NCBI GenBank assembly: GCA_965242725.1
Contig: CBDESZ010000025.1
Location: 256,001 to 320,000 of the forward strand
Source: Alkalispirochaeta sp.
GTDB lineage: Bacteria > Spirochaetota > Spirochaetia > DSM-27196 > Alkalispirochaetaceae
Length of the DNA stretch: 64,000 nucleotides
Reading direction: 5' to 3'
Below the pieces are notes generated by a model, which was not told the origin of the DNA, made no database searches, and was given only the letters and a program-made list of their open reading frames with translations. Of the stretch, positions 30,022 through 56,918 are shown in pieces. The stretch's first letter is position 1; each line of letters opens with the position of its first letter. A program made the position numbers and the translations under genes.

Positions 30022-31338
30022 ATGAGTGTTATCGTAAGCAAGTTCGGCGGAAGCTCCGTCGCCGATGCGAACCAGATCAGAAAAGTGGTGAAAATCGTCG
30101 GAAGCGATGCGCGACGCCGGGTCGTCGTCGTTTCAGCGCCGGGAAAACGATCGAAGAGTGATGAGAAGATCACCGATATTCTCATTTCGTGCCACGCTCT
30201 CGCAGCGAGGGGCGAGGATTTTCGCGGTCGCTTTGCCCTGATCCGGGAGCGATATAATGAAATCGCCGCCGATCTCGGTCTGGGGTCGGATTTTGAACCG
30301 GTACTTGACGAAGTAGAAGAGAATATCGCCGCAGGTGCGGATCAGAGTGCCGTGGTGTCGCGGGGAGAATACCTCGGGGCACGGCTTATCGCCCGTTATA
30401 TGGAATCTGAGTTTGTCGATGCGGCGGAGCTTATCCGGTTTCAGGATTCCACAACGGTGGACGACGGTACGACGGACGAGCTGATTCGCAAGCGTATTTC
30501 CGACGGGGGAACCTACGTCATTCCAGGCTTTTATGGCGCCCATGGGGACGGGCGGGTCCAGCTTTTCACCCGGGGCGGATCGGACATTTCCGCCTCCCTC
30601 GTTGCACGGGCGCTGGATGCGGAACTCTATGAAAACTGGACCGATGTTTCCGGGCTCCTCTCCGCAGACCCCCGGGTTGTCGACGCTCCCGCCCCCATCA
30701 GCGAGGTCAGCTACCATGAACTGCGGGAGCTTGCATATCTGGGGGCCAATGTTTTTCACGACGAGGCGGTTGCGCCCGTGGCGGACCGGGACATTCCCAT
30801 CAATATTCGCAATACAAACAAACCGGACCATCCGGGAACGATGATTCTCTCCCGCGCCAAGGCGTCTCCCCGGGCGCGCGGCAGCAGAACCGGCGTCGCC
30901 GGAAAAACGGGGTTTTCCGGCATCGTCATTCGCCGCTCCATGTTGAGCAAGATCGCCGATTTTCCCGTTCAGCTTGGATCCCTCCTGGGCGAAAAGGGAA
31001 TACGCATGCATCACTGCGCACTGGGGAGCGATTCGGCGACGGCGATCGTCGAAACGGCGGCGCTGGACGCAGCGGGTGAATCGGTTCTTGAGGAGATCAG
31101 GACGCTGTTTACGGCCCTCAGCGTCGAAAAAAGCGTCCCCTACGCCCTGATCGGTGCGGTGGGTGAGGATCTTGCCGTTCTTCCCGCGTCGCTGGGGCGC
31201 GTCCTCACCGCCTTTGGAGAGGCAGGGGTGCCGGTTCACTTCATTTCAAGCGGGTACTCAACGAGCAGTTTCCTCATCGCCGTCGATGAAGAGCGGTATG
31301 AGGAGTCCATCCGTCTCCTTTATACGGCGACCTCATAA
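30022..31338 (+). CDS. lysC: Aspartate kinase (YclM/LysC-type, C-terminal ACT domains)
   Basis: SKFGGSSVAD, VVSAPGKR, SRGEYL, RGGSDIS, ENWTDVSG..ADPR; GGAGG SD. Confidence 0.9.
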   Translation: MSVIVSKFGGSSVADANQIRKVVKIVGSDARRRVVVVSAPGKRSKSDEKITDILISCHALAARGEDFRGRFALIRERYNEIAADLGLGSDFEPVLDEVEENIAAGADQSAVVSRGEYLGARLIARYMESEFVDAAELIRFQDSTTVDDGTTDELIRKRISDGGTYVIPGFYGAHGDGRVQLFTRGGSDISASLVARALDAELYENWTDVSGLLSADPRVVDAPAPISEVSYHELRELAYLGANVFHDEAVAPVADRDIPINIRNTNKPDHPGTMILSRAKASPRARGSRTGVAGKTGFSGIVIRRSMLSKIADFPVQLGSLLGEKGIRMHHCALGSDSATAIVETAALDAAGESVLEEIRTLFTALSVEKSVPYALIGAVGEDLAVLPASLGRVLTAFGEAGVPVHFISSGYSTSSFLIAVDEERYEESIRLLYTATS

Positions 31339-31424
31339 CGGCGGTCCGCCGGTGGCGTCCGCGCCCTGCCTGATGGGGGGACGCCGTAGCGGGAGCGAGA
31401 GGCGCGCTCTGTCCAGGAACGTAT

Positions 31425-31462
31425 AAAAAAGGCTGTCCGGAACTTCCGGACAGCCTTTTTTT
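31425..31462. terminator. Bidirectional intrinsic terminator between aspartate kinase and gdhA
   Basis: A6-GGCTGTCCGGA-ACT-TCCGGACAGCC-T7. Confidence 0.9.
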
Positions 31463-31502
31463 AAGAGTTTTCTGAGCTCTGGACGTTTCCCGTTGGGAAT
31501 CC

Positions 31503-32837
31503 TCAGAAGCCCATGTCGATCATCGTATCGGCAACGCGGCGGAAACCGGCGATGTTGGCACCCCGTACGTAGTCGACGTTGTCGCCCTTCGTACCCTCTT
31601 TGACGCAGTTCGCGTGGATCGTCTTCATGATCAGCTGCAGTTTCTCATCAACCTCTTCCGCCGTCCATGCAAGTTTCATGGAGTTCTGGGACATTTCAAG
31701 CCCCGATACGGCGACACCCCCGGCGTTGGCTGCCTTGCCCGGTGCGAAGGGCACACCGGCGTGCTGGATGTTCTCGACCGCTTCCGGCGTGCAGCCCATG
31801 TTGGAGGTTTCCACAACGTAGGTCACACCGTTTTTCAGCAGCGTGGCGGCGTCGTCGCCGTTGAGCTCATTTTGAATCGCGCAGGGCATGGCGACATCGA
31901 CGGGGACTTCCCAGGGTTTCCTGCCGGCCACGAAGGTTGCGCCGAACTTCCTTGCGTACGGTTCCACGACGTCGTTGTTGGAGGCGCGCAGCTGAAGGAG
32001 GTAGTTGAACTTCTCCTCCGTGTTTATGCCCTTTTCGTCGAGGATGTATCCGTCCGGCCCGGAGATGGTGACAACTTTTGCGCCGAGTTCCGTCGCTTTC
32101 ATAATGGAACCCCACGCGACGTTTCCAAAGCCTGAAACGGAAATCTTCTTTCCCGCGAGGGCGTCGTTGCGACGCTGCACCATTTCGTTGAGAAAGTAGA
32201 CGGCGCCGAATCCCGTCGCTTCCGGTCGTATTAACGAACCGCCCCAGTTCCGGTTTTTGCCGGTGAGGACGCCCACGTGGTCGCTGCGGAGGCGCTTCCA
32301 CTGGCCGTAGAGGAATCCGATCTCACGGGCGCCGACACCGATATCCCCGGCGGGGACGTCAAGTTCCGGACCGATATACTTCTGGAGCTCCGTCATAAAC
32401 GCCTTTGAAAAGCGCATGATCTCATTGTCCGATTTTCCCTTGGGATTGAAGTCTGAACCGCCCTTGCCTCCTCCGAGGGGCAGACCGGTCAGGCTGTTCT
32501 TGAAGATCTGTTCAAATCCGAGAAATTTCAGTCCCCCCAGGGTGACGCTGGGGTGAAACCGGAGCCCCCCTTTATACGGGCCAAGGGCGTTGTTAAACTG
32601 TACACGATATCCCCGATTGACGTGGAGGTCGCCGTTGTCGTCTTCCCATTCCACCTTGAAGGTGATGACCCGATCGGGCTCGGTGATTCGGTCGAGGATC
32701 TTTGCCCCGAGGTAGGCGGGATTGGTATTTACCACATCGATAATGGATTCAACAACCTCTTCTGCCGCCTGCACAAACTCCGGCTGAGCGGGATTCCGTT
32801 GTTCCAGTTCCGCAATGAACGTCTTCAAATCATACAT
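31503..32837 (-). CDS. gdhA: NADP-specific glutamate dehydrogenase
   Basis: GPYKGGLRFHP, GGGKGGSDF, DVPAGDIGVG, RPEATG, KAANAGGVA; SD AAGGAG before ATG 32837. Confidence 0.97.
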   Translation of the reverse strand: MYDLKTFIAELEQRNPAQPEFVQAAEEVVESIIDVVNTNPAYLGAKILDRITEPDRVITFKVEWEDDNGDLHVNRGYRVQFNNALGPYKGGLRFHPSVTLGGLKFLGFEQIFKNSLTGLPLGGGKGGSDFNPKGKSDNEIMRFSKAFMTELQKYIGPELDVPAGDIGVGAREIGFLYGQWKRLRSDHVGVLTGKNRNWGGSLIRPEATGFGAVYFLNEMVQRRNDALAGKKISVSGFGNVAWGSIMKATELGAKVVTISGPDGYILDEKGINTEEKFNYLLQLRASNNDVVEPYARKFGATFVAGRKPWEVPVDVAMPCAIQNELNGDDAATLLKNGVTYVVETSNMGCTPEAVENIQHAGVPFAPGKAANAGGVAVSGLEMSQNSMKLAWTAEEVDEKLQLIMKTIHANCVKEGTKGDNVDYVRGANIAGFRRVADTMIDMGF

Positions 32838-32854: not shown

Positions 32855-32926
32855 TGTCGCATTATTTGAACGTCAGTATATATACTGCAACAATGTCATT
32901 CTCAATCGCCTTTCACGCTTTGTCAA
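32855..32926 (-). promoter_or_regulatory. gdhA promoter + tandem operator (site D)
   Basis: TTGACA(32926-21)-17-GAGAAT(32903-898), 5 nt, TGTTGCAGTATATATACT-GA-CGTTCAAATAATGCGACA (32892-32855). Confidence 0.75.
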
Positions 32927-32952: not shown

Positions 32953-33025
32953 TTGACAGTCCGAAGGTTCCGGTGCAGAATAGGTCTTGTTGCAAGATAG
33001 TAACATATGTTCAAATAACGGAACA
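32953..33025 (+). promoter_or_regulatory. Transaminase-asd-TRAP operon promoter + tandem operator (site A)
   Basis: TTGACA(32953-58)-17-CAGAAT(32976-81), 6 nt, TGTTGCAAGATAGTAACA-TA-TGTTCAAATAACGGAACA (32988-33025). Confidence 0.8.
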
Positions 33026-33052: not shown

Positions 33053-34429
33053 ATGAGTGATCGATTTTCTGAGCTATCCCTCAGTGAAGCGCCGGTAATT
33101 AAGGTAACCCCTCCCGGACCCAAGTCAAAAGAGCTGCTTGATGCGCAGGCGAAACTTGAAGGATCCGCCGTATCATATCCCAAGGGGATGCCCATGGCCA
33201 TAAAGCGGGGCAAGGGCGCAACCATCGAGGATGTGGACGGAAACGTGTATATCGATATGTTCGGGGGAGCCGGCGTCATGGCAGTCGGTCACGGCCATCC
33301 TGACGTTCTGAAAGCCGCCCATGATGCGATCGAACAGTATACCCATACACTGGATATTCCCACGGAAGTGCGGAAGACGATGGTGGACACCCTGCGGGAA
33401 CTCCTCCCCTCGGAGCTTTCCCGGGTTTTCTTCGGCGGTCCCACCGGCTCCGACGCGGTCGAACAGGCGATCAAGCTTGCCCGGTACAATACCGGCCGAC
33501 ACGAGATCATCGCCTTTCACGGTGCGTACCACGGCATGACCGGTGTCGCCCTGGCGCTCACCACCGATGACAGCCATCGCAAGGGTATGGAGCCCCTCGT
33601 TCCGGGAATCCGCTTCATCCCCTACGATTACAAGTATCGTTCTCCCTTCGGCGAGCCCGAAGAAGACAGCGATCTTCGCGCGGCGGACTATCTGGACATG
33701 GTTTTGACCAACTCGCACTCCGGGTTCGGCAAGCCTGCGGCGGTTATTCTGGAATCGGTACAGGGCGAAGGTGGAACGATCATACCCAGCGTACGTTTCA
33801 TGCGCCGAGTCAGGGAAATCACCAAGAAACACGACGTGATTCTCATCTGTGACGAAATCCAGGCGGGACTGGGCCGTACCGGAAAGATGTTTGCCTTTGA
33901 ACACTACGGAGACGACTTTGTCCCCGATATCATCACGATGTCCAAGGCCCTTGGAGGCATCGGATTCCCGATCTCCGCCATCGCATACAAGGAAGAGCTC
34001 AATACCTGGCCCGCCGGTGCCTCCATCGGTACCTTCCGCGGAAACATGGTCGCCTTTGCCGCCGGCGCGGCAGCGCTTCGCTTCATGAAGGACAATGATG
34101 TGCCGGGCTACGCTGCGGAACTGGGCGCCAGGATGCTCAAGGAACTCAAGAAGCTTGAGACGGAAACCAAAATCGTCGGTGAAGCACGCGGAATCGGTCT
34201 CATGTTCGGTATCGAAATCGTGCGTGACCAGAAAACGAAAGAACCCGCCGGCGATCTCGCCAAAAAGGTCAGAAAATACGCTCATCAGCGGGGCGTCATG
34301 ATCGAGGTAGGCGGTCACCACGGGAACGTTGCCCGACTCCTTCCGCCGCTCATCATCTCCGAAGAGCTTGCAATGAAGGGCGTGAAGATCATCACCGAGG
34401 TCATCAAGGACATCGAGAAAGAGCTGTAG
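33053..34429 (+). CDS. Diaminobutyrate:2-oxoglutarate transaminase (EctB/Dat-type class III aminotransferase)
   Basis: GPTGSDAVEQAIKLAR, FHGAYHGMT, ESVQGEGG, DEIQAGLGRTG, SKALGG, GTFRGN. Confidence 0.85.
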   Translation: MSDRFSELSLSEAPVIKVTPPGPKSKELLDAQAKLEGSAVSYPKGMPMAIKRGKGATIEDVDGNVYIDMFGGAGVMAVGHGHPDVLKAAHDAIEQYTHTLDIPTEVRKTMVDTLRELLPSELSRVFFGGPTGSDAVEQAIKLARYNTGRHEIIAFHGAYHGMTGVALALTTDDSHRKGMEPLVPGIRFIPYDYKYRSPFGEPEEDSDLRAADYLDMVLTNSHSGFGKPAAVILESVQGEGGTIIPSVRFMRRVREITKKHDVILICDEIQAGLGRTGKMFAFEHYGDDFVPDIITMSKALGGIGFPISAIAYKEELNTWPAGASIGTFRGNMVAFAAGAAALRFMKDNDVPGYAAELGARMLKELKKLETETKIVGEARGIGLMFGIEIVRDQKTKEPAGDLAKKVRKYAHQRGVMIEVGGHHGNVARLLPPLIISEELAMKGVKIITEVIKDIEKEL

Positions 34430-34454: not shown

Positions 34455-35483
34455 ATGGCTAAAGATAGATATAATGTAGCCGTCGTCGGCGCCCTGGGCG
34501 TCGTCGGAACGGAAATGATGAAGACACTGGAGCGGCGGAACTTTCCTATTGCCGAGTTTCGACCTCTCGATATTCCCGAAAATGCGGGAAAGGAAGTCAC
34601 CTTCAACGGGAAGCCCGTCAAAGTGCAGGCGGCGGTCAAGGAAAACTTCAAGGGTATCGATATTGCGATCTTTTCCGCAGGCGCCACCGCATCAAAAGCG
34701 CTGGCACCCCAGGCGGTTGAGATGGGCGCCGTGGTCGTGGACAACTCCTCGGAGTGGCGTATGAATCCGGAATGCCCCCTGGTCGTCCCGGAAGTGAATC
34801 CCGACGACCTGAAGTGGCACAAGGGGATCATCCCCAACCCCAACTGTTCGACAATTCAAATGGTGGTCGCCCTCAAGCCTCTCCACGATGCCGGCAAGAT
34901 CAAGCGGATCGTCGTCTCCACCTACCAGGCTGCGTCCGGTGGTGGTGCAAAAGGGTTGAACGGGCTCGCCGCGGAAGCTGAGGAGTACATGAAGACGGGC
35001 AAGCAGGTCGCACCGCGGGTGCATCCGGTACAGCTCGCCTTCAATGCGGTGCCCCATATCGACGTCTTCCAGGAACATGGTTACACCAAGGAAGAGTTCA
35101 AGATGGTCAATGAGACCAAGAAGATCATGGGCGACGACTCCATAGAGGTAAACCCGACGGCGGTACGCATACCCGTCTATTACGGCCACTCTGAATCGAT
35201 AAACATCGAGACGGAAAAGAAGATCACCGCCGACGAGGCGCGGGCGCTTCTTTCCAAAGCCCCGAGCATCATCGTGAAGGATGATCCCGCCAACAACGTG
35301 TATCCCACGCCGCTGGAATCCAACGATGTGGATGAGACGATGGTGGGGCGGATCCGGGAGGATCTGACGATCAAGAACGGTCTGAACCTCTGGGTCGTCT
35401 CCAACAACATACGGAAGGGTGCGGCACTCAACGCCGTACAAATCGCCGAAACACTGGTGAAAATGGACCTGGTTCGGGTATGA
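34455..35483 (+). CDS. asd: Aspartate-semialdehyde dehydrogenase
   Basis: VVDNSSEWRM, LVVPEVN, NPNCST (catalytic Cys), STYQAASG, GHSE, NIRKGAALNAVQIAE. Confidence 0.96.
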   Translation: MAKDRYNVAVVGALGVVGTEMMKTLERRNFPIAEFRPLDIPENAGKEVTFNGKPVKVQAAVKENFKGIDIAIFSAGATASKALAPQAVEMGAVVVDNSSEWRMNPECPLVVPEVNPDDLKWHKGIIPNPNCSTIQMVVALKPLHDAGKIKRIVVSTYQAASGGGAKGLNGLAAEAEEYMKTGKQVAPRVHPVQLAFNAVPHIDVFQEHGYTKEEFKMVNETKKIMGDDSIEVNPTAVRIPVYYGHSESINIETEKKITADEARALLSKAPSIIVKDDPANNVYPTPLESNDVDETMVGRIREDLTIKNGLNLWVVSNNIRKGAALNAVQIAETLVKMDLVRV

Positions 35484-36688
35484 ACATTCGAGAGGAGATC
35501 CTGGAACTGAAGGATGAGTTGATTCACATCCGTCGGGATCTGCACATGCATCCGGAACTCGGTTTTGAAGAGTTTCGAACTGCCGATATTATCGAGCAGT
35601 ATCTGCGGGAGCTGGGGCTGGAGCCCCAGCGCCTCGCACAGACGGGCGTTGTTGCGACGATGGCAGGAACCGCCATCGGCAGCTCCGACGGCCCGACGCT
35701 CATGCTTCGGGCGGACATCGACGCGCTCCCCATTCAGGAAGAGACGGATGTCCCCTACAAGTCGCTCAACGACGGTGTCATGCACGCCTGCGGTCATGAC
35801 GCCCATACGGCGATCCTGCTGATTACCGCGAAGGTGTTGAGCCGCCATCGGGACAAAATCAAGGGCAAGGTGAAGTTTCTCTTTCAGCCCAATGAAGAGG
35901 TTGCCGGTGCGGAAATCATGGTCGCCGAGGGGGCGCTTGAAAACCCCCGGGTCGACGCGGCGATGGGTATTCACATCTGGACGCCCCTCTTGAGCGGACA
36001 GATCGCCGCTACCGTCGGGGGTGTCATGGCGAGCATGGACGTCTTTCATATCGTCATCAAGGGGAAGGGCGGTCACACGGGATATCCCGATTCCGCGATC
36101 GACCCGATCATCTGCGCGGCCAACCTTATCGAGACGGCCCAGCGCATTCAGACGCGGGATATCAGCCTCTTATATCCCACCAACCTCATGTTTTCCAAAA
36201 TCACTTCAGGTACAAAAAACAACATCATTCCGGATCAGGTCGAGATTGAAGGTACTTTACGGTACCTTTATGAGCCGACGGAGGAGTTTAACCCTGCACG
36301 GAGATTGGAAGAGGTGGTACAATCGGTATGTGCCGTGCACCGTTGCGGGTATGAGTTCTCCATAGAGACGGAGAACGAGGTCGTCGTCAACGCGCCGGAA
36401 ATGGTGCAACTCGTCCGGGAGACGGCGGCGGAAATGGTTGAAAGTAAAAAAGACCTGGTGGAGCATCGCTCCATGGCAGGCGAGGATTTTGCGGCCTACG
36501 CAAAACGGGTTCCATCGGCGTTCATACACGTCGGCACGCGGGATCCGGAGAAAGGGAGTGACTATCCCCATCACAGTCCCCACTTCAATATCGACGAGGA
36601 AACACTGCCGACGGGGGTAGAACTGTTCGTTCGGTCGACCGAGCGATTTTTTGAACGGGAATGGGACTTCGACGTAAGTCGAAGTTAA
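35480..36688 (+). CDS. M20D amidohydrolase (N-acyl-amino-acid amidohydrolase family)
   Basis: RRDLHMHPELGFEE, LRADIDALP, MHACGHDAH, FQPNEE, GEDFA, HHSPHF; ATGA-coupled to asd. Confidence 0.9.
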   Translation: MNIREEILELKDELIHIRRDLHMHPELGFEEFRTADIIEQYLRELGLEPQRLAQTGVVATMAGTAIGSSDGPTLMLRADIDALPIQEETDVPYKSLNDGVMHACGHDAHTAILLITAKVLSRHRDKIKGKVKFLFQPNEEVAGAEIMVAEGALENPRVDAAMGIHIWTPLLSGQIAATVGGVMASMDVFHIVIKGKGGHTGYPDSAIDPIICAANLIETAQRIQTRDISLLYPTNLMFSKITSGTKNNIIPDQVEIEGTLRYLYEPTEEFNPARRLEEVVQSVCAVHRCGYEFSIETENEVVVNAPEMVQLVRETAAEMVESKKDLVEHRSMAGEDFAAYAKRVPSAFIHVGTRDPEKGSDYPHHSPHFNIDEETLPTGVELFVRSTERFFEREWDFDVSRS

Positions 36689-36709: not shown

Positions 36710-37783
36710 GTGGCAAAGAAAATCTTTGTACTAACGATGCTGCTGGTGTTTGCAGTGAGCATGACCGGGCTGTTTGCCGAAGGCAATCAGGAACGGGGTG
36801 GTGGAGGAACCACTCAGGTGATTGAAGCTCGACTCGCATCGGAAGAGATCGAAGGCGACTTCATGACCGTATGGGCGAACAACTTCGCCGACTACATGCG
36901 GGAAGCAACGGACGGCGGATACGATCTGGACGTCTATCCCTATGGTGCGATCGGTGATACCCGTGACATCAACGAGCTGGCTCAGCTCGGTGTTGTGGAA
37001 TGGGTCTTCTCCGACTACGCCTGGATCAGTGCATTTGTGCCGCAGGCACAGGTCCTGGCCCTCAACTACCTGTGGCCCCGTGACAAGGTAGCCGAGGTCG
37101 TCGAGTGGGTCGTGAAGAACGGCGAAACGATGGATCTTCTTGAAAATCACTTCCGCCGGAACGGCCTCGTTCCCCTCTCAATCATGTTTGAAGGCTGGCA
37201 GTGGGTAACTTCCACCGATCCGGTCAGCACGCTTGAGGAGATGCAGGGCGTTAAGGTCCGTGTCATGGGCTCCCAGATGCTTGTTGCCAACTATCGCTCC
37301 TATGGATACAGCCCCACGCCGATGAGCTACGGTGAAGTCTACAGCGGTCTTCAGACCGGTCTGATTGATGCACAGATCAACCCGCTCTTCGCGATTTACA
37401 GCATGAAGTTCTACGAGCCGACCCGCTATTTCACCCAGATGTGGGCGGAACCGTTCCTCGGAATTCCCACGGCCAACATGCAGCACTTTGATTCTCTTCC
37501 TGAAGAGTATCAGCAGCTGATGCGCGACTGGTGGGCGGACGCGATCGTTCCCGCCGGTGAGTGGATCAATGAGAAGAACGCCGGATTCCGCGAGGCGATT
37601 ATGGAAGAAAAACCCTCCATCGTCTGGAACGAGTTCAGCGATGAGCAGATCGCCGAAGCGACCGAAATTGCACGGACCGTCGATGCGGACTTCATCAAGG
37701 CCGGTGGTGACGGTGCTGAAGAGTTGCTCGACACGCTCCTTCGCGACATTGAAGAAGCAAAACAGGCGCTTGGCGTAGACTAA
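36710..37783 (+). CDS. TRAP transporter substrate-binding protein, TeaA/UehA-like (ectoine/hydroxyectoine)
   Basis: Signal peptide; SEEIEG, YPYGAIG, KVRVMGS, PTPMSYGEVYSGLQTGLIDAQINP resembling TeaA; context. Confidence 0.8.
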   Translation: MAKKIFVLTMLLVFAVSMTGLFAEGNQERGGGGTTQVIEARLASEEIEGDFMTVWANNFADYMREATDGGYDLDVYPYGAIGDTRDINELAQLGVVEWVFSDYAWISAFVPQAQVLALNYLWPRDKVAEVVEWVVKNGETMDLLENHFRRNGLVPLSIMFEGWQWVTSTDPVSTLEEMQGVKVRVMGSQMLVANYRSYGYSPTPMSYGEVYSGLQTGLIDAQINPLFAIYSMKFYEPTRYFTQMWAEPFLGIPTANMQHFDSLPEEYQQLMRDWWADAIVPAGEWINEKNAGFREAIMEEKPSIVWNEFSDEQIAEATEIARTVDADFIKAGGDGAEELLDTLLRDIEEAKQALGVD

Positions 37784-37859
37784 GCAAATACGAGACGGCA
37801 TGGACTGTTCACGGTTCATGCCGTCTTTGTATATTCAAAAAGAGGGAGAGTGGTACCCA

Positions 37860-48981: not shown

Positions 48982-49759
48982 TTTCACCGATATGCCCCAT
49001 CGTCATTGAAAGTCCCTGTGCCTCCGCAAGAATGCGGGGAGCCACGTCATTGAGTACGTCCGGGGTCAGGATCATGACCGGTCCGATTACCGAGAGGGAT
49101 GCGATAAAATTCCCGTCGTGATTTCTAACCGCTGCGGCGATCCCGTTGATATAGGGGCTGTGTTCTCCAAGCTCAAGGGAGTATCCCCGTCTGCGGGTAA
49201 TGAGGATCTCCCGTTCCAGCGCTTCCGCGTCCCCGATTGAATGCTTCGTCGGGGTGTGGAAGGCCATGTTTCGATAGAGCTCTTGTCGTTGTTCCTCCGG
49301 GAGGGTGGATAGGTAGAGCTTCCCCGATGCCGTGCTGTTGAGGTCATAGGTGACGGCGAAGTCATTGGCTACCTGAATATCGGCCGGGGGGATCACCCGT
49401 TCGAGGTTGACCATTTTATTGTCCGCCGGCGCGGTCAGATAGACGTTGGCCTGCATGTCCAGGGCGATCCGCTCCATAACGGGGCGAGCCGCCGCAGCGA
49501 TGTCCCGTGTGAGCGGTACCGTATTTCCAAGAGAGTGGAGCTTGAAGGTGAGGCTGAAGGCGTTCTCGTGCTTTTCCACATACCCGAGATACTCCAGACT
49601 GGCGAGGAGGCTGTGCACATTTCCCTTGCTCAGCTGCAGACGTCTGATGATTTCAGGCGTCCCGATCGGCTGATGCTCGGCGATGCATTCCAGAATTCCA
49701 AATGCCTTTGTCAGCGTCGTTGATATGATGTAGCTGCGCTGTCTTTCCGGTCTGCCCAT
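48962..49759 (-). CDS. IclR-family transcriptional regulator 3
   Basis: TLTKAFGILE, KGNVHSLLASL, TASGKLYL, RGYS, LSVIGP; start 49759 or 49774. Confidence 0.9.
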   Translation of the reverse strand: MGRPERQRSYIISTTLTKAFGILECIAEHQPIGTPEIIRRLQLSKGNVHSLLASLEYLGYVEKHENAFSLTFKLHSLGNTVPLTRDIAAAARPVMERIALDMQANVYLTAPADNKMVNLERVIPPADIQVANDFAVTYDLNSTASGKLYLSTLPEEQRQELYRNMAFHTPTKHSIGDAEALEREILITRRRGYSLELGEHSPYINGIAAAVRNHDGNFIASLSVIGPVMILTPDVLNDVAPRILAEAQGLSMTMGHIGETIHGRE

Positions 49760-49773: not shown

Positions 49774-49848
49774 TTGACGATTTGCCGGTTCAGTCTTACT
49801 ATACAGTAGTGGTTTATATGGTAGAACATAAGTCTAAATATGTAAACC
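49774..49848 (+). promoter_or_regulatory. Amidohydrolase-ureohydrolase operon promoter + variant tandem operator (site C)
   Basis: TTGACG(49774-79)-17-TACTAT(49797-802), 8 nt, GGTTTATATGGTAGAACA-TA-AGTCTAAATATGTAAACC (49811-49848). Confidence 0.7.
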
Positions 49849-49869: not shown

Positions 49870-51129
49870 ATGGTTCGGATTGAACGCCTTCTTCGCGATA
49901 TCGAAGAGATGGGAAAGATCGGTGCCCTGCCGGGCGGCGGCAATTCCCGGCCGGCAATGTCTTCGGAAGACCTCGCCGGTCGGGAGTATTTGATTTCTGC
50001 AATGGAAGAGGCGGGTATGGTCACGTGGACCGATCCGGCCGGGAATGTCTGCGGACGCCGCGAGGCGGACTCTCCCGTCGCGGGAGATGAACGGGCTATT
50101 CTCCTCTGCTCACACATTGACACCGTTCCTGCCGGCGGACGATACGACGGCGTGGTGGGCGTCTTCGGAGCCCTTGAGTGCGTCCGGAGCCTCAATGAAT
50201 CGGGTGTTCAATTGAACCGGCCGGTGGAGATCGTCGCCTTCAACGATGAGGAAGAGCGTTTTCTCGGCTTCCTGGGCAGCTATGCCGTCACGGGCAGGCT
50301 CTCCGCCGAGGACATCGCGGGTGTCACCGACCACGACGGGGTCGGGCTCGTTGAAACGATGCGCGCCATCGGTCTTCATCCCGACCGGGTGGCCGGCGCC
50401 CGAAGGGAACGGGGCAGCATCGCGGCATGTCTGGAGGTCCATATAGAACAGGGCCCCGTACTGGATCGCATGAACATACCCGTTGGCGTTGTCAGAGGCG
50501 TGAAGGGTGACTACCGCCGGCGCATCACGTTCAGGGGTCGCCCGGACCACGCAGGTGCACCAAAGGGTGGCCGCCGGGATGCCTTCATGGCCTTTCACTG
50601 GTTTATTTCCCGCATAATCACCCTCATCGACATCAGCGGCAACGACGAGACGACCTGCACCGTCGGGCGGCTTCGGGTGGAGCCCAATGTAGAAACGATT
50701 CAGCCCGGCCTCGTTGAAGCGGCTGTAGACGTGCGCTCTCCCGACGGGGCATTTCTCAGGAAAGTGGAGCGGGAAATGCGTGCAGTGGGAACGGAAATCG
50801 GGGAAATGCATGGTGTTACCTTCACGATAGAACCGATTCTGACGGAGGATCCCGTCCTGTTCGACGATGTGGTGGTAAATACGCTGAAGGATGCCGCCCG
50901 ATCGCTTGAATACCCCTTTCACGAGATGTTCAGCGGTGCGGGCCACGACGCCCAGGTTCTGGCCGCTGCCTTTCCGACGGGGATGCTCTTCATCCCCAGC
51001 GTGGACGGGCGCAGCCATTGTCCGGAGGAGTACACGGAGCCCGGGGATATTGAAAAAGGGATACACGTGCTGTACCACGCCGTAATGCGGTTGGGAACAC
51101 AAACAGAAAACCAAGGAGCTTATCTATGA
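49870..51129 (+). CDS. Zn-dependent M20 hydrolase (allantoate amidohydrolase / N-carbamoylase family)
   Basis: SHIDTV..GGRYDG, DEEERF, EVHIEQGPVL, DHAG, SGAGHDA, SHCPEE. Confidence 0.88.
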   Translation: MVRIERLLRDIEEMGKIGALPGGGNSRPAMSSEDLAGREYLISAMEEAGMVTWTDPAGNVCGRREADSPVAGDERAILLCSHIDTVPAGGRYDGVVGVFGALECVRSLNESGVQLNRPVEIVAFNDEEERFLGFLGSYAVTGRLSAEDIAGVTDHDGVGLVETMRAIGLHPDRVAGARRERGSIAACLEVHIEQGPVLDRMNIPVGVVRGVKGDYRRRITFRGRPDHAGAPKGGRRDAFMAFHWFISRIITLIDISGNDETTCTVGRLRVEPNVETIQPGLVEAAVDVRSPDGAFLRKVEREMRAVGTEIGEMHGVTFTIEPILTEDPVLFDDVVVNTLKDAARSLEYPFHEMFSGAGHDAQVLAAAFPTGMLFIPSVDGRSHCPEEYTEPGDIEKGIHVLYHAVMRLGTQTENQGAYL

Positions 51130-52112
51130 AACTTCCGAAAGACGTGGAAGCGCTGTTGCTGGATTCACCCAGGCCGGGAACCTGGGTGCCCGATGAATAC
51201 GACGTAAGCCTGGCGGATATCATGGTCGATTGGCGTACCGCCGACGCGGCGGATGTGGGAATACTGGGCATTCCCTTCGACACCGCCGTCAGCGGACGCC
51301 GGGGTTGCCGATTCGGACCGGACAGCGTCCGGAATGCCCTCGTATTTTCGGATGTATATGAGCCGGGTATCGATGTCGATCTGTCCGAGGATTTCAGTGT
51401 TACCGACTTCGGAAATGTGGACGTCCTCTTTACCGACGTCCTCGGCACCCATGAGCGTGTGGAATCGGTGGTAACCGAAATCGTGAAACTTGGAATTACG
51501 CCGGTCATGATCGGCGGGGATCACTCCCTCGCCTATCCGGATGTGAAGGGACTCATGAACGGCGTTACCGGCAAGGTGGGAGTCATAAACATCGACGGGC
51601 ACCTTGATGTCCGCCACTCCCACCACGGAGAGGTTTCCAGTGGGACGCCCTTTCGCAGACTCATGGAGGACTCCGATACCCCCCTTGATCCGAAAAATTT
51701 CGTGGAATTCGGTATCAACACGTGGCTGAACTCCCGTTATTACCGTGACTACTGCCGGGACATGGGCGTTACCGTCATCACCGCCAGGGACATTCATTTG
51801 AACGGCATCGTTCCGACCATAGAAGAGGCGATTTCAATTGCAACGGACGGCGTTGATGCACTCTTTCTCAGTTTTGACATCGACGCGATCGACCTCGCCC
51901 ACGTTCCGGGAACAAACGCCCCCAACGCCGGAGGTCTCACGTCGTTTCAGGCGCTTGAGTCGGTCTGGCGGGTGGGACAACACCCCAAATGCCGTGCAAT
52001 GGACATGGTGGAGGTCGCCCCATCGCTGGATGCCGCCAACGTGAGCTCAATCATGGGCGCCGCCCTGATCATGCAGTTCATGGGTGCGACGAAGGTGCGT
52101 CTGAAAGGCTGA
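51126..52112 (+). CDS. Ureohydrolase-family protein (formimidoylglutamase/agmatinase-like)
   Basis: GIPFD, RFGP, GGDHS, DGHLD, SSGTPF, SFDIDAID metal ligands. Confidence 0.88.
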   Translation: MKLPKDVEALLLDSPRPGTWVPDEYDVSLADIMVDWRTADAADVGILGIPFDTAVSGRRGCRFGPDSVRNALVFSDVYEPGIDVDLSEDFSVTDFGNVDVLFTDVLGTHERVESVVTEIVKLGITPVMIGGDHSLAYPDVKGLMNGVTGKVGVINIDGHLDVRHSHHGEVSSGTPFRRLMEDSDTPLDPKNFVEFGINTWLNSRYYRDYCRDMGVTVITARDIHLNGIVPTIEEAISIATDGVDALFLSFDIDAIDLAHVPGTNAPNAGGLTSFQALESVWRVGQHPKCRAMDMVEVAPSLDAANVSSIMGAALIMQFMGATKVRLKG

Positions 52113-52173: not shown

Positions 52174-53364
52174 ATGTCACTCATACGCAACAAAACACAC
52201 TTTGAGCGGGCGGAATACGACCGTCGCCTGCGCAAGACGAAAGAACGAATGGACCACGCCGGCATTGAGGTGCTCCTCGTGGTAGATCCGGCAAACATGA
52301 ACTATCTCACCGGTTACGACGGGTGGAGTTTCTACGTGCATCAGGGGCTCCTCATTGCCCTCGACAGGGAAGAACCGATCTGGTTCGGGCGTCAGCAGGA
52401 TTCCAACGGTGCGCGAATCACGACATGGCTTTCCGAAGAGAGCATCGTCGGGTATCCCGATGAGTACGTACAGTCCCGCTATACCCACACGATGGTGTTT
52501 GTGTCACAGATGCTCAGGGAGCATATGTGGGACCGCCGCGTCCTCGGTGTGGAAATGGATAATTACTGGTTTTCCGCGCGAATGCTGTTGACCCTGCAGA
52601 GTGAAATTGCGGGTCTCCGCGTGCAGGATGCGACCAATCTCGTGAACTGGGTTAAAACGGTGAAGTCCGAGGCGGAAATTCGCTATATGCGCGACGCCGC
52701 GGCGATCTGTAAAAATGTAATGGATGTGGCGATAGAGAATATCGCCGTCGGTGTGAGGGAGAAGGACGTGGCGGGTCTTGTCGCGGGAGCTCAGATACAC
52801 GGCACCGAAGAGTTCGGCGGTGACTCTCCTGCGATTTTCCCGATCATGCCAAGCGGAGAGAACACCTCCACCGCCCATTTGACCTTTGATCCCGACCGGA
52901 GTTACGAGGCGGGGGATGTTGTCCTTCTTGAGCTGGCAGGCGCGAGGTATCGCTATCATGCACCTCTTTCCCGGACTGTGTATCTTGGCACGCCGCCGTC
53001 GGATTTGCAGAAGGTGGCCGATGTCGTGGTCAACGGACTGAATCGCACCCTGAACTTCATTAAACCCGGCGTCACCGCCGAGGAGGTGGAAGCGACGTGG
53101 CGGGATTGCCTGAAGGGTACGGGGGTGGAGAAGCCGTCTCGAGTCGGGTATTCCTTTGGGTTGAGTTACGTCCCCGACTGGGGAGAACATACGGTTAGTT
53201 TGCGTCCAGGCGACAAGAGCGTTCTCGAGCCGGGAATGACGATTCACTTCATGCCGGGGATCTGGCTTGACACCTACGGATTCGAATGCAGCGAACCGTT
53301 CCTCGTAACCGAGACGGGGTGCGAAAAGCTCATCGAGTATCCGCAAAAGCTGTTTGTGAAATAG
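52174..53364 (+). CDS. doeA: Ectoine hydrolase DoeA/EutD-like (M24 fold), copy 2
   Basis: NMNYLTGYDGWSFYVHQ, LVNWVKTVKS, AHLTF, RYHAPLSRT, SRVGYSFG.SYVPDWGE. Confidence 0.8.
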   Translation: MSLIRNKTHFERAEYDRRLRKTKERMDHAGIEVLLVVDPANMNYLTGYDGWSFYVHQGLLIALDREEPIWFGRQQDSNGARITTWLSEESIVGYPDEYVQSRYTHTMVFVSQMLREHMWDRRVLGVEMDNYWFSARMLLTLQSEIAGLRVQDATNLVNWVKTVKSEAEIRYMRDAAAICKNVMDVAIENIAVGVREKDVAGLVAGAQIHGTEEFGGDSPAIFPIMPSGENTSTAHLTFDPDRSYEAGDVVLLELAGARYRYHAPLSRTVYLGTPPSDLQKVADVVVNGLNRTLNFIKPGVTAEEVEATWRDCLKGTGVEKPSRVGYSFGLSYVPDWGEHTVSLRPGDKSVLEPGMTIHFMPGIWLDTYGFECSEPFLVTETGCEKLIEYPQKLFVK

Positions 53365-53446: not shown

Positions 53447-54190
53447 CTACATGAAGCCGTCGTATCGTCTCGGTACGACGGACTGGAATACGTAGCGAAT
53501 CATGGTGTTGTAATCAAAGACGGGCAGGCCCGTGTGGCGTCGCACCGCCGCGGCATACGGCGGCAGGAGGGAGCACTCAAGGAGAATCGCCCCGAGTTTT
53601 CTTCCTCCTTCGTCGGCAGCCTTCCGGATCTCGTCCACCGTCTGAATCACTTCCTGTTCCACCACATCGCTGTCGAGAACGCCGTTCTCTTCAAAGACGG
53701 CGTCCACGAAATGGGGCTTGTCCTCGAGGCCGCCCGCGACAAGACGGTCGTCGGGAACGGCGGTTACCACGTTCAGAATATCCCGGGTCAGAGATCCCTT
53801 GTTCGCTGTGACGATGCCGACATCCCTGTCGGGACCCGCGAGGCGCGCCATGAAATCGAGCTGAAGAAGGCTCGAGAGGAATACGGGGACGCCAAGCTCG
53901 CGGGCAATTTCGTCCTGAAAATAGGCGAGAAACCCGCAGTCACCGGTGATTGCCCGTACGCCCTCGGCGACCAGGCGCCGTCCCGCGGCGACGATATCGT
54001 CGCGGAGTGAGCCGTCGTGGCTGAAGAGCCGGCTCGTGGTGGATCCCGGAAGGCGTTCAAAACGGACGGGAAAATCATAGCTCGTCGCGTTGGCCGTGTC
54101 CCCGGGAATATAGGGGACAAAATTTTCGATTACCAGAATTCCGATGGCTTCACCGTAGCTCACCTGACCTGGATGGGTGTGATATTTCAT
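53447..54190 (-). CDS. Aspartate/glutamate racemase-superfamily protein
   Basis: IPGD..NA.SYDFPV, AITGDCGF and LLECSLLPPY (two Cys), GLPVFD. Confidence 0.75.
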   Translation of the reverse strand: MKYHTHPGQVSYGEAIGILVIENFVPYIPGDTANATSYDFPVRFERLPGSTTSRLFSHDGSLRDDIVAAGRRLVAEGVRAITGDCGFLAYFQDEIARELGVPVFLSSLLQLDFMARLAGPDRDVGIVTANKGSLTRDILNVVTAVPDDRLVAGGLEDKPHFVDAVFEENGVLDSDVVEQEVIQTVDEIRKAADEGGRKLGAILLECSLLPPYAAAVRRHTGLPVFDYNTMIRYVFQSVVPRRYDGFM

Positions 54191-55182
54191 TGGATCTTCT
54201 CTCCCTGAAGTTGGATGCCGCGGTTCCCGTCGATGCGATTTCGACGACCGCCGTTCATATAGCTTCGCAAATTTTCGGCCGCTTCGGCTACGCATCGTGT
54301 ACGGGATTCCACGGTCGCCCATCCTATGTGGGGGGTTATGATGCAGTTTGGCGCCGATAGGAGCGGATGGTCTCCCTCAGGCGGTTCCTCGTACCCGACA
54401 ACGTCGACGGCGGCGCCGGCGAGGCTCCCGTTGTGAAGCGCTTCCGCGACGGCGGACTCATCGGTGAGCCCGCCCCTGGAGGTGTTGATCAGGAGGGCCG
54501 ACTCCTTCATTTGCGTCAATGCCCGTCGATCAATCAGTTCCGTCGTCTCTTCCGAAAGGGGGGTGTGTAACGTGACCACATCCGCCGCAGCGAGCAGATC
54601 GGACCACGAGAGCCACCGGACCTCGACACCGGGTATCGTCTTTCGCCGCGCCTCCCAGCCGAGGACCTTCATACCCAGGGCACCTGCGAGCTTCGCAACG
54701 GCCACGCCGATCGCGCCGAATCCCAGTATGGCGATAGATTTTCCCCGGAGTTCGAGAGCGGGGAAATCGGTATACGAGACCGGTTCGCCCCGACGCCATT
54801 TTCCCCGGTGAACGAGGGAGTTGTAGTCGCACACGCGGTGTGCCAGGTTGAGAATGAGTGCAAGTGTCAGTTCCGCAACGGAGTCGGTTGAATAGTCCGG
54901 GACATTTGTCACGGCAACTCCGGCGGACATCGCGGCGTCCACGTCAATTCGATCGTACCCTGTGGAAAAGAGCCCGATATACTTGAGCCGCGGCAGACGG
55001 GCGATACGTTCAGCGTGAAGAGCGACGTGATCCACGAGGATTGCGTCGGCGTCGGCGGCCAGTGAATCCAGAATGTCCTGGGAGAAATGGGGAGCCGCGG
55101 TGAAACTGCCCAGTTCATGAAAGGGCGACCACGAAATATCTCCGGGATTCACCCCGAATGCATCGATTGCAACGATCTTCAT
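54187..55182 (-). CDS. D-2-hydroxyacid dehydrogenase (glycerate dehydrogenase/hydroxypyruvate reductase-like)
   Basis: NPGDISW, TNVPDYST.SVAE, ILGFGAIG, INTSRG, TPHIGWAT.E.R. Confidence 0.9.
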   Translation of the reverse strand: MKIVAIDAFGVNPGDISWSPFHELGSFTAAPHFSQDILDSLAADADAILVDHVALHAERIARLPRLKYIGLFSTGYDRIDVDAAMSAGVAVTNVPDYSTDSVAELTLALILNLAHRVCDYNSLVHRGKWRRGEPVSYTDFPALELRGKSIAILGFGAIGVAVAKLAGALGMKVLGWEARRKTIPGVEVRWLSWSDLLAAADVVTLHTPLSEETTELIDRRALTQMKESALLINTSRGGLTDESAVAEALHNGSLAGAAVDVVGYEEPPEGDHPLLSAPNCIITPHIGWATVESRTRCVAEAAENLRSYMNGGRRNRIDGNRGIQLQGEKIQ

Positions 55183-56831
55183 TCTGCTCCCGGACACTGA
55201 GACGCGACGGAATCGGGAACCTTTCCGGCAAACTCCCCCTCGAAATGGGCGTGAAACTCCCGGGCGAGGCGTTGTGCGTGTTCCTCGTATGCTTCGGTAT
55301 CCTTCCACGCCATGCGGGGATTCAGCACCTCCCGGGGAACCTCCCGACATGTCACCGGTATGGAGAGGTTGAAAAACGGTTCCTTTTCAAATTCTCCGCC
55401 GTCCAGCTCCCCCGCGAGTGCCGCTTTTACCATGGAACGGGTCATGGCGATGTCTATCCGCCTGCCCGTTCCGTAGGCACCGCCGCTCCATCCGGTGTTG
55501 ACGAGGAACACCCTGGTCTGATGGCGATCGAGTTTTTCGCCGAGGAGATCGGTGTAGTCCTTGGGGTTACGGGGCATAAAGGGTGCGCCAAAGAATCGGG
55601 AGAAGACGGATTGGGGTTCCACAACACCCGTCTCCGTACCGGCCAGCTTGGAGGTATATCCCATCATGAACCAGAACATCGCCTGCTCGTTGGTCAGGCG
55701 CGCAATGGGCGGAAGTACACCGTAGGCGTCGGCGGTAAGGAAGACGATTGTCCGGGGATGCCCGCCCATGGACGACTCCTTGATGTTGGAAAGGTATGTG
55801 AGCGGGTAGGATGCCCGGGAGTTCTGGGTGAAGCGGTCATCATCGAAATCGAAGGCACCGGTGGGATAGACCATGAGATTTTCGACGAGCGCGCCGTGAA
55901 AGAGGTAGTGATCCGGGTGAAACACTGCGTGATACACCTCAGGCTCCTTGCGCGGATTCAGCTGGTAGAGTTTTGCGTAACAGCCGTTTTCAAAATTGGC
56001 TATTCCCGTGTCGCTCCATCCGTGTTCATCGTCACCCAAAAGCGCCCGGTCGGGAGCCGTAGAAAGGGTGGTCTTCCCCGTCCCCGAGAGTCCGAGAAAG
56101 ACGGCGATATCACCGCTTTTTCCTTCATTCGCACTGCAGTGAAGGGGCAGCACCTCCTGCTCCGGCAGGTAGTAGTTCATTACGGTAAACATGAGTTTCT
56201 TGATTGCACCCATGTAGGACGAGCCGAAGACGATGCCGATGCGGCGGTCAAAGTCCATGACTACTGCCATCGTTGAGGTTGAGCCGTCGGCGAGTTTTCT
56301 CAGCCGCCCCTCGTATCGCTCAGGGTGAAGTTTGTCGTACTGATTCACCAGAAGGTAAAACGGATAGTCCTCAAAACAGCTCGATTCGATTCCTGTAGGT
56401 TCCGGACGAAACATATTGTCTATGAACAGACCCGCCAGTGGGTTGTCTACAATTGAACACACCGGGAGTGCGTATGAAGGATCCGCTCCGATCGCCTTTT
56501 CCTGGACATAGACCTTCGGCTTCAACTCCAGCGCCTGCATCGCATCCTCAAATATCATGTCGAAGGTTTCTTCGTCGATGGCGATCGAGTAGGGTGAGTT
56601 CCAGTCAATCGTATTTTCACTCTCCGGGCGCCTGACGATCATCGTGTCTTTCGGACTTCTTCCCGTGGAATCCCTGGGCGTCCACGTGACGAGAGTGCCG
56701 CTTTCAAGACGTATCGCGTTCCAGTGGCTCACGGCATTATCAATCAGGACGCGCCGTGTCGGATTCCGAAAGACCTTTCCCGTCCGGTCGGCGAGGGTCC
56801 TGTCTATCCTCTGATGGTGAGTCTCGTGCAT
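55179..56831 (-). CDS. pckA: Phosphoenolpyruvate carboxykinase (ATP)
   Basis: TGRSPKD, LHCSAN, GLSGTGKTTLS, LGDDEHGW, FENGCYAK, LVNTGW; GGAGG SD before ATG 56831. Confidence 0.96.
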   Translation of the reverse strand: MHETHHQRIDRTLADRTGKVFRNPTRRVLIDNAVSHWNAIRLESGTLVTWTPRDSTGRSPKDTMIVRRPESENTIDWNSPYSIAIDEETFDMIFEDAMQALELKPKVYVQEKAIGADPSYALPVCSIVDNPLAGLFIDNMFRPEPTGIESSCFEDYPFYLLVNQYDKLHPERYEGRLRKLADGSTSTMAVVMDFDRRIGIVFGSSYMGAIKKLMFTVMNYYLPEQEVLPLHCSANEGKSGDIAVFLGLSGTGKTTLSTAPDRALLGDDEHGWSDTGIANFENGCYAKLYQLNPRKEPEVYHAVFHPDHYLFHGALVENLMVYPTGAFDFDDDRFTQNSRASYPLTYLSNIKESSMGGHPRTIVFLTADAYGVLPPIARLTNEQAMFWFMMGYTSKLAGTETGVVEPQSVFSRFFGAPFMPRNPKDYTDLLGEKLDRHQTRVFLVNTGWSGGAYGTGRRIDIAMTRSMVKAALAGELDGGEFEKEPFFNLSIPVTCREVPREVLNPRMAWKDTEAYEEHAQRLAREFHAHFEGEFAGKVPDSVASQCPGAE

Positions 56832-56846
56832 ACAACCTCCCTTTGT

Positions 56847-56918
56847 TGTATCATTATATGAACGACTGTTACAATTGTGAGACAATATCAGTGTAAGTTG
56901 GGTCGATGCCGCTGTCAA
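56847..56918 (-). promoter_or_regulatory. pckA operon promoter + tandem operator (site E)
   Basis: TTGACA(56918-13)-17-TACACT(56895-90), 5 nt, TGTCTCACAATTGTAACA-GT-CGTTCATATAATGATACA (56884-56847). Confidence 0.72.

What the first reader, a model, noticed from the sequence alone, without database searches (positions are those of the whole stretch)
30022..56918. Non-canonical, IclR-controlled ectoine/hydroxyectoine catabolic island in a probable spirochaete
Seen: TeaABC-like TRAP, DoeA x2, EutB and EutC, the hallmark ectoine-utilisation genes. No DoeB/EutE (AstE/AspA-family deacetylase), DoeC (ALDH-family) or EnuR(MocR)/DoeX(AsnC) is present in the window. Instead there are an M20D amidohydrolase, an EctB/Dat-type transaminase, Asd, aspartate kinase, GdhA, PckA and three IclRs, spread over at least five transcription units that share an operator architecture. 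Established: the characterised pathway (Halomonas, Ruegeria, Sinorhizobium) is proteobacterial and uses DoeABCD/EutABCDE. Inference: this is a rewired, probably fermentative route: ectoine -> N-acetyl-DABA -> DABA + acetate -> aspartate semialdehyde -> aspartyl-P -> aspartate -> OAA -> PEP, with GdhA recycling the 2-oxoglutarate amino acceptor.
Basis: partly seen in the sequence, partly recalled or inferred. Interest (0 to 1): 0.88.

Follow-up and report, generated by a model that had tools for sequence, protein, structure and literature searches.

The report
Anaerobe-type ectoine breakdown regulon
A salt-lake-type spirochaete carries a jointly regulated gene set that most likely imports the salt-protectant ectoine and breaks it down to aspartate, using a normally biosynthetic enzyme retuned to run backwards, which may let an anaerobe earn ATP from a compound so far known as food only for aerobes.

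Summary
The genes are there, and no EutE, EctA, EctC or EnuR was found in the 92%-complete genome. Five promoters share a real tandem operator, GT-N12-AC-N4-GT-N12-AC. One copy lies inside codons 1-12 of an apparently leaderless iclR (22 of 26 orthologue loci).

The same cluster recurs in 80 DoeA loci, mostly anaerobic lineages: spirochaetes, Desulfuromusa, Firmicutes, Atribacterota. New support for the catabolic direction: the cluster Asd carries an Asp where NADP-binding residues normally sit (20 of 20 readable loci; 0 of 67 canonical Asd loci had ectoine genes). The island GdhA also looks NAD-type.

Corrections: the aspartate kinase has no operator and is the genome's only one, so it must also be biosynthetic. 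An M20-type DoeB has precedent.

EutE/Ssd-less clusters were noted in print in 2026, without a mechanism, and this scan met the type on three other genomes. Verdict: new variant of a known pathway; ectoine use likely, ATP gain plausible, nothing tested by experiment.

The parts
30022..31338 (+). Aspartate kinase (PRK09034-like, weak ACT domain). Only one in the genome; no operator; within 10 kb of doeA in 15 of 80 loci
31503..32837 (-). Glutamate dehydrogenase with NAD-type motif; this orthologue is found only in the 6 DoeA-positive family genomes, which all keep a second Gdh
32856..32891 (-). Tandem operator downstream of the gdhA promoter (-35 at 32926, -10 ending 32898)
32989..33024 (+). 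Tandem operator downstream of the atf promoter (32953-32981)
33053..34429 (+). Class-III transaminase, Dat-like; inferred DABA:2-oxoglutarate transaminase
34455..35483 (+). Aspartate-semialdehyde dehydrogenase with Asp in place of the Ala-Ser-x-Arg-Ser coenzyme loop; inferred NAD-preferring, oxidative
35480..36688 (+). M20D amidohydrolase; inferred N-acetyl-DABA deacetylase replacing EutE
36710..39708 (+). TRAP transporter dctP (36710-37783), dctQ (37860-38417), dctM (38419-39708); DctP closest to UehA and TeaA; terminator 39736-39767
39793..42780 (+). Receiver plus PPDK-N domain protein; travels with gdhA; role unknown
42881..43867 (-). EutC-like cyclodeaminase/imine reductase
43878..44867 (-). 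EutB PLP dehydratase
44872..46047 (-). DoeA1 ectoine hydrolase with motifs matching H. elongata DoeA
46077..46877 (-). IclR1; GTG start 7 nt after the -10 hexamer, no Shine-Dalgarno (inferred leaderless); likely the operator-binding repressor
46840..46875 (-). Tandem operator inside codons 1-12 of iclR1
46942..47730 (-). IclR2
47806..48981 (+). MFS transporter; accessory
48962..49759 (-). IclR3, divergent from the carbamoylase
49812..49847 (+). Tandem operator downstream of promoter 49774-49802, overlapping the iclR3 promoter; matching site in G016
49870..52112 (+). N-carbamoyl-amino-acid hydrolase (49870-51129) and HutG-like ureohydrolase (51126-52112); accessory module, substrate unknown
52174..53364 (+). 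DoeA2, second hydrolase clade with altered pocket motifs; own promoter 52139-52167, inferred leaderless
53447..54190 (-). PRK07475 two-cysteine racemase (AMDase/hydantoin-racemase fold); core gene, 61 of 80 loci
54187..55182 (-). D-2-hydroxyacid dehydrogenase; accessory (3 of 80 loci)
55179..56831 (-). Divergent ATP-type PEP carboxykinase (second copy; canonical one on contig C5)
56848..56883 (-). Tandem operator downstream of the pckA promoter (-35 at 56918, -10 ending 56890)

Best explanation
An inducible regulon for using ectoine and hydroxyectoine, in a version adapted to anaerobes. Steps: (1) TRAP import (homology shown, ligand inferred). (2) DoeA1, and DoeA2 for a second substrate or isomer, opens the ring to N-acetyl-DABA (homology shown). 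(3) M20D removes acetate (inferred from family chemistry and linkage). (4) EutB, EutC and the racemase funnel the hydroxy branch to DABA (inferred by analogy; unproven even in Ruegeria). (5) The Dat-like transaminase gives aspartate semialdehyde plus glutamate (inferred). (6) An NAD-retuned Asd oxidises it to aspartyl-phosphate (signature shown, activity inferred). (7) Aspartate kinase, shared with biosynthesis, hands the phosphate to ADP, one ATP per ectoine, as GAPDH and PGK do (inferred; weakest core step). (8) NAD-type Gdh regenerates 2-oxoglutarate and frees ammonia; aspartate goes to oxaloacetate by an unlinked aminotransferase and to PEP by PckA (inferred). IclR1 represses five promoters, its own included, through a tandem operator just behind the -10 box (sites shown, binding inferred). 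My odds: ectoine-family substrate 0.85; oxidative NAD-Asd 0.8; net ATP through Ask 0.55; growth on ectoine alone 0.35.
For: DoeA1, DoeA2 and DctP have ectoine proteins as best solved relatives. Linkage in 80 DoeA1 loci: racemase 61, TRAP 49-59, M20D 50, EutB 50, EutC 35, Atf 21, Asd 21, Ask 15, often as one strand-aligned run (many loci are cut short). EutE: 0 of 17 family genomes and 0 of 5 distant cluster genomes over cut-off. In the family, close M20D relatives occur in the 6 DoeA-positive genomes and 1 other. Asd Asp signature: 20 of 20 readable cluster loci. Independent set of 80 metagenome Asd loci: 8 of 9 PLD[I/V]-type had cluster genes, 0 of 67 canonical. A canonical NADP-type Asd is kept on C27. 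GdhA is closest to 1BGV/1AUP, the NAD-specific enzyme. 4 of 5 distant cluster genomes have an extra long aspartokinase ORF of 807-833 aa besides the cluster Ask. The exact operator pattern occurs in 5 of 6 DoeA-positive and 0 of 11 DoeA-negative genomes.
Against: No biochemical or induction data. DoeA, EutC, Dat and DoeB2 all score under their curated cut-offs. DctP has Ala where TeaA has Trp and UehA Phe, and Tyr for a shared Trp. Ask lacks the operator and is the sole aspartokinase found here, in the five other DoeA-positive family genomes and in one Desulfuromusa genome. The Ask + Asp-type Asd + M20D trio also occurs without DoeA beside a sugar ABC transporter (G015), and 4 FVDL-type Asp Asds had no ectoine genes, so the module is not ectoine-specific. 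No aspartate aminotransferase and no clear electron sink in the island. Related genomes are not independent, and some handles and named loci may be the same records.
Confidence: 0.68

Rival explanations
1. Ectoine is scavenged mainly as a nitrogen and building-block source. Aspartate semialdehyde feeds Thr/Met/Lys synthesis or is reduced to homoserine, and aspartate kinase is a housekeeping gene that gives no meaningful ATP.
For: Ask is the only aspartokinase, has no operator, and the genome has two homoserine dehydrogenases. Full oxidation to acetate and CO2 would release 3 NADH and 1 reduced ferredoxin per ectoine, with no sink in the island (my stoichiometry). An earlier scan note made the same point about Ask (e1-4796542).
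Against: A feed into biosynthesis needs neither an NAD-type Asd, nor an NAD-type Gdh, nor a co-regulated PckA. Ask stays in the operon in genomes that have another aspartokinase.
Confidence: 0.17
2. The true substrate is a relative of ectoine (another cyclic amidine or guanidine, or N-acylated or carbamoylated solutes), with DABA or glutamate as the common funnel.
For: Changed DctP pocket; DoeA2 pocket motifs differ from H. elongata DoeA in 16-19 of 23 loci; co-regulated carbamoylase and HutG-like amidinohydrolase with no urocanase in the genome; sixth site before an amino-acid symporter and a second M20D; a core racemase of a family other than EutA.
Against: DoeA1 keeps the H. elongata motifs in 72-79 of 80 loci; EutB passes its family cut-off; EutB, EutC, DoeA and a UehA-like binding protein together are the ectoine hallmark.
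Confidence: 0.11
3. Ask, Asd and the transaminase run forwards to make DABA for ectoine, polyamine or siderophore synthesis and only happen to sit next to the hydrolases.
For: These three enzymes are the normal biosynthetic route to DABA (established knowledge).
Against: No EctA or EctC in the genome; Asd has lost the NADP loop; atf and asd share one operon and operator with a deacetylase and an importer.
Confidence: 0.04

Closest known systems
[quoted passage not shown]
   Same: EutD/DoeA hydrolase, EutB, EutC, UehA/TeaA-like TRAP, a DABA transaminase, a racemase-fold protein; end product aspartate (PMC5924519, PMC8739950, passages read)
   Different: No EutE, Ssd/DoeC, EnuR, AsnC or Usp in the island; M20D, phosphorylating Asd plus Ask, IclR and a PRK07475 racemase instead; two DoeA clades; anaerobic hosts
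Methylomicrobium alcaliphilum doeBDAC and NCBIfam NF038260 DoeB2
   Same: A deacetylase unlike EutE does the job: the doeB mutant accumulates N-alpha-acetyl-DAB, and its DoeB is only 22% identical to H. elongata DoeB (PMC7192451, passages). The DoeB2 model matches the window's M20D, so an M20-type deacetylase has precedent; linking the paper's DoeB to that model is my inference
   Different: Score 276 vs cut-off 550, so not a member; that cluster has DoeC, serves to recycle self-made ectoine, and shows no transporter or regulator genes
Putative EutE/Ssd-less clusters of Thermodesulfobacteriota and Bacillota (Boas Lichty et al. 2026, PMC13188858)
   Same: 9-13 co-oriented genes, usually two eutD, no eutE or ssd, TRAP transporter; Desulfuromusa kysingii is named in its supplement and carries this cluster type (L068). 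The Bacillales version has an amidohydrolase (abgB)
   Different: The text has no mention of spirochaetes, anaerobes, IclR or M20 and proposes no Asd/Ask route, cofactor switch or operator. Bacillales use PucR, ThrA and an aldehyde dehydrogenase. I could not see Figs 6-7, whose grey genes may be labelled
GAPDH plus phosphoglycerate kinase, as a working analogy
   Same: Phosphorylating aldehyde oxidation followed by acyl-phosphate to ATP; PMC3276109 notes the shared mechanism and calls the oxidative direction of Asd nonphysiological
   Different: No physiological use of Asd plus Ask in this direction turned up in my searches

Membership tests
Canonical EutDE/DoeAB ectoine catabolic system | EutD/DoeA M24 hydrolase | tested here: met
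   Best PDB hit 6TWK, E 1.9e-106; motifs kept; under the TIGR02993 cut-off (468 vs 613)
Canonical EutDE/DoeAB ectoine catabolic system | EutE/DoeB (AstE/AspA family) beside eutD | tested here: not met
   0 matches in own genome, 0 of 17 family genomes, 0 of 5 over cut-off in distant genomes
Canonical EutDE/DoeAB ectoine catabolic system | Ssd/DoeC aldehyde dehydrogenase in the cluster or regulon | tested here: not met
   None in the island; no operator near genome ALDHs; motif screen found none in 80 loci
Canonical EutDE/DoeAB ectoine catabolic system | EnuR (MocR) control | tested here: not met
   Only MocR-length GntR scores 188 vs 480 on EhuR and is unlinked
Canonical EutDE/DoeAB ectoine catabolic system | EutB and EutC for hydroxyectoine | tested here: met
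   EutB passes PRK07476; EutC-like passes PRK08291 but not TIGR02992 (356 vs 472)
Canonical EutDE/DoeAB ectoine catabolic system | EutA racemase | tested here: not met
   The racemase hits only PRK07475 in NCBIfam; same fold superfamily by structure
Canonical EutDE/DoeAB ectoine catabolic system | Growth on, and induction by, ectoines | not testable with these tools
   No suitable RNA run found
UehA/TeaA ectoine-binding proteins | Conserved ligand pocket | tested here: inconclusive
   Top three PDB hits (150-152 bits vs 125 next). Positions I recall as ligand contacts (TeaA E9, E121, R144, N184, F209) are kept; W167 is Tyr, F66 is Trp, W188 is Ala (numbering recalled)
DoeB2 (NF038260) M20 deacetylase | Score over curated cut-off | tested here: not met
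   276 vs 550 bits; generic amidohydrolase model scores higher
DoeB2 (NF038260) M20 deacetylase | Intact M20D metal and catalytic motifs | tested here: met
   Cys/His, Glu-Glu and C-terminal His motifs invariant in 31 aligned sequences; nearest structure YxeP
Biosynthetic NADP-dependent Asd | GATG and Ala-Ser-x-Arg-Ser coenzyme loop | tested here: not met
   GA[LMC]G and Leu-Asp in 20 of 20 readable cluster copies; Ser37 and Arg39 bind the coenzyme in the S. pneumoniae enzyme
Ectoine biosynthesis (EctABC-Ask) | EctA and EctC present | tested here: not met
   (genome 91.8% complete)

The most novel reading that the evidence does not exclude
Anaerobes ferment ectoine by an undescribed route in which an NAD-retuned Asd and aspartate kinase run backwards to make ATP by substrate-level phosphorylation, under a leaderless IclR whose own first codons are its operator. 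A sister version in Firmicutes and Atribacterota swaps this lower half for PanB-like, U32-like and Gdh-like enzymes, possibly cleaving the C4 chain to pyruvate plus a folate-bound C1 unit. Together they would be the anaerobic sink for a major osmolyte in saline and soda sediments.
Probability: 0.4. Interest if true: 0.78.

Novelty: new variant of a known kind. Interest (0 to 1): 0.56.

Why it matters
Ectoine is released in bulk in saline habitats, and the papers I could read show its use as food only in Proteobacteria. This cluster names the enzymes, the regulator, its binding site and cultured carriers among the 80 loci (Pleomorphochaeta sp., Desulfuromusa kysingii, two Anoxynatronum species, Gudongella sp.), so anaerobic ectoine turnover becomes directly testable. 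A natural NAD-preferring Asd working oxidatively would be a physiological use of a reaction described as nonphysiological. It could also interest amino-acid engineers who want an NADH-using Asd.

Tried and rejected
DoeA1-M20D complex prediction: never ran because the queue stayed full, so there is no result either way. It was low value, since a stable EutD/EutE complex has not been seen in vitro (PMC8739950).

Expression: the one RNA holder shared 0.08 of the words. Its contigs cover gdhA, atf-dctM and doeA1, mostly at under 90% identity (369 of 441 laid). These are relatives, contigs only, possibly DNA; not counted as evidence.

Sixth operator at C25:5861 (before an AgcS symporter and a second M20D): third-tier score, and the one orthologue found (G005) has neither AgcS nor a site. 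Kept as a lead only. The weaker hit at C25:430026 was rejected (a TetR/hydrolase pair).

Histidine use as the reason for the HutG-like gene: no urocanase found.

A crude AstE motif hit in L045 is a GNAT protein. Only gene families seen in 3 or more loci were scanned against libraries; singletons were not.

A simple palindrome search found only one site; the tandem-box pattern was needed. The iclR1 codon statistics use loci picked by the matrix and are partly circular; the denominator is 22 of 26 orthologue loci.

Phylum sample: DoeA1 matched 1 of 200 other genomes, so the trait is patchy. Mais et al. 2020 is not in the library, so EutD catalytic residues were compared by motif only.


Full report
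Observation. The window lies on contig C25 of a 4.34-Mb genome, 91.8% complete. The closest named DoeA1 relatives are Alkalispirochaeta and Spirochaeta MAGs at 85-91% identity, so a spirochaete host is well supported. No heme-copper oxidase was found. EutE, EctA, EctC and EnuR were not found genome-wide. Aldehyde dehydrogenases exist elsewhere but are unlinked.

Regulation. Four promoters of the island reach 10 of 12 sigma-70 matches with TTGACA and a 17-base spacer (gdhA, atf, iclR1, pckA); the carbamoylase promoter reaches 9. Each is followed by two 16-base boxes, GT-N12-AC, four bases apart. A matrix from four sites picked the iclR1 site as the next best position in the genome, and each held-out site ranked in the top 4-5. 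In 84 loci, 26 had a site, against 1 hit in shuffled DNA. The exact pattern gave 18 matches in 5 of 6 DoeA-positive and 0 of 11 DoeA-negative family genomes; the reversed control gave 1. In 22 of 26 loci with an IclR1 orthologue the operator begins at the third base of the start codon. In 21 of these 22 a -35 box lies 34-36 bases upstream, leaving 5-7 bases after the -10, so the mRNA is probably leaderless. Codon use there is fixed at DNA level: Asn6 is AAC in 21 of 21, Asn10 is AAT in 21 of 21, Ser9 is TCA in 20 of 20. Autorepression by IclR1 is the simplest reading; binding is not shown. No site lies before ask.

Conservation. The best 80 of 102 DoeA1 loci come from spirochaetes, Desulfuromusa, Atribacterota and Firmicutes lineages that I recall as anaerobic. 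Neighbours within 10 kb: racemase 61, DctM 59, DctQ 53, M20D 50, EutB 50, DctP 49, EutC 35, IclR1-like 29, DoeA2 23, Atf 21, Asd 21, Ask 15, PckA 5 (many loci are cut short). In Sediminispirochaeta- and Sphaerochaeta-like genomes these form one run: iclR-atf-asd-M20D-TRAP-racemase-doeA1-eutB-eutC-doeA2-ask. The window's island is a rearranged, enlarged copy. Two lower pathways alternate: Atf/Asd/Ask in 25 loci and PanB-like/U32-like/Gdh in 23, overlapping in one. EutE was found in 0 of 17 family genomes and over cut-off in 0 of 5 distant ones.

Direction of flux. The cluster Asd has GA[LMC]G and Leu-Asp where solved Asds have GATG and Ala-Ser-x-Arg-Ser. Ser37 and Arg39 anchor the coenzyme in the S. 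pneumoniae enzyme, and loss of the equivalent Arg relaxes NADP specificity (PMC3276109, section 7). An acidic residue at this position is the usual mark of NAD preference (established knowledge; not tested here). All 20 readable cluster copies have it. In an independent set of 80 metagenome Asd loci, 8 of 9 PLD[I/V]-type had cluster genes, 0 of 4 FVDL-type did, and 0 of 67 canonical ones did, 32 of those being 8 kb or longer. The genome keeps a canonical Asd on C27. The island GdhA is closest to the NAD-specific 1BGV/1AUP enzyme and is an extra copy found only in DoeA-positive family genomes. A second Asp-type asd lies directly before a pckA in G000, G009 (pckA fragmented) and G016, which supports flow towards PEP.

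The weak step. Ask is the only aspartokinase in the genome. The six DoeA-positive family genomes have only this type, whereas 10 of the 11 others have two different ones, and 16 of 17 have homoserine dehydrogenase. Here Ask must therefore also run forwards. Against a purely housekeeping role, 4 of 5 distant cluster genomes keep the cluster Ask beside a longer aspartokinase. The reverse reaction favours ATP formation (recalled). Carried to acetate, the route gives by my count 2 acetate, 2 CO2, 2 ammonia, about 2 ATP and 8 electrons per ectoine. The island offers no clear sink for these, so growth on ectoine alone is uncertain.

Other parts. DoeA1 keeps the H. elongata motifs; DoeA2 is a separate clade with Gln for Met, Ser for Tyr and Phe/Tyr for Trp in three motifs, which suggests a second substrate or isomer. 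The racemase has two invariant cysteines and folds like arylmalonate decarboxylase and hydantoin racemase (pLDDT 92). It also occurs in loci without EutB or EutC, so its job is not limited to hydroxyectoine. DctP is nearest to UehA and TeaA but differs at three aromatic positions. The carbamoylase and HutG-like genes recur inside ectoine operons in L031, L050, L060 and G016; their substrate is open.

Prior knowledge. Canonical systems use EutE, Ssd and EnuR (PMC5924519 and PMC8739950, passages). A methanotroph uses a divergent DoeB (PMC7192451, passages), and NCBIfam has an M20-type DoeB2 model. PMC13188858 (abstract, introduction, sections on distribution and evolution, supplement term search; figures not seen) reports EutE/Ssd-less clusters with two eutD in Thermodesulfobacteriota and amidohydrolase-bearing ones in Bacillota as provisional. 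Its text does not mention spirochaetes, IclR or an Asd/Ask route. Searches for anaerobic ectoine use, reverse aspartokinase, NAD-type Asd and these genera (listings and abstract starts only) found no description of the mechanism; subscription journals are not covered. This scan noted the same cluster type on three other genomes, with the ATP idea. The short notes shown do not mention the cofactor signature, the operator or the leaderless IclR.

Verdict. A real, conserved, co-regulated system that works like the Eut/Doe pathway but is not a member by its defining EutE, Ssd and EnuR features. New variant of a known kind.

Noticed in passing
L013, L015, L021-L084 (23 loci; e.g. L080:5131-6979): Firmicutes, Atribacterota and Halanaerobiaceae DoeA clusters lack Atf/Asd/Ask and carry PanB-like (over cut-off), U32-like (Atlas score 0.96, no Pfam hit) and another Gdh, sometimes with Rid or formate-THF ligase: a second, undescribed lower pathway, possibly yielding pyruvate and a folate-bound C1 unit.
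   Followed up: partly
L099 (G015:C1:1738000-1757000): Ask + Asp-type Asd + M20D without DoeA, beside a sugar ABC transporter, a NagB-like gene and a ROK regulator: the module may be reused for a sugar-amino-acid conjugate.
   Followed up: partly
L003:4862-7597 (G000:C25:5861-8596): Operator-like site before an AgcS amino-acid symporter and a second M20D; could handle a linear N-acetyl-diamino acid. Not conserved in the one orthologue checked.
   Followed up: partly
L001:10402-13124 (contig C5): Second Asp-type asd (88% identical) directly upstream of the canonical pckA, without operator; same pairing in G009 and G016.
   Followed up: yes
window 39793-42780: Receiver plus PPDK-N protein pairs with gdhA also in DoeA-negative genomes G011 and G015, so the atf operon seems to have been inserted into an older gdhA/PPDK-like pair.
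   Followed up: partly
L060:13927-15888, L083:11396-15973, L068:11418-14810: Some clusters add a fumarate-reductase/aspartate-oxidase-like flavoprotein with an Fe-S partner (5 loci), a proline-racemase-family gene (4 loci) or a large NAD-Gdh (3 loci); the last two have operator-like sites. Candidate aspartate oxidation step or electron sink.
   Followed up: no
L156, L164, L165, L180: A separate Asd lineage with an acidic coenzyme loop (FVDL) and no ectoine genes nearby.
   Followed up: no
G000:C5:142434-143801: Aspartase/fumarase-like gene under the AspA cut-off, with one TGA inside the match.
   Followed up: no
window 27188-29281: Three small co-oriented ORFs upstream of ask with no Pfam or NCBIfam match.
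   Followed up: no
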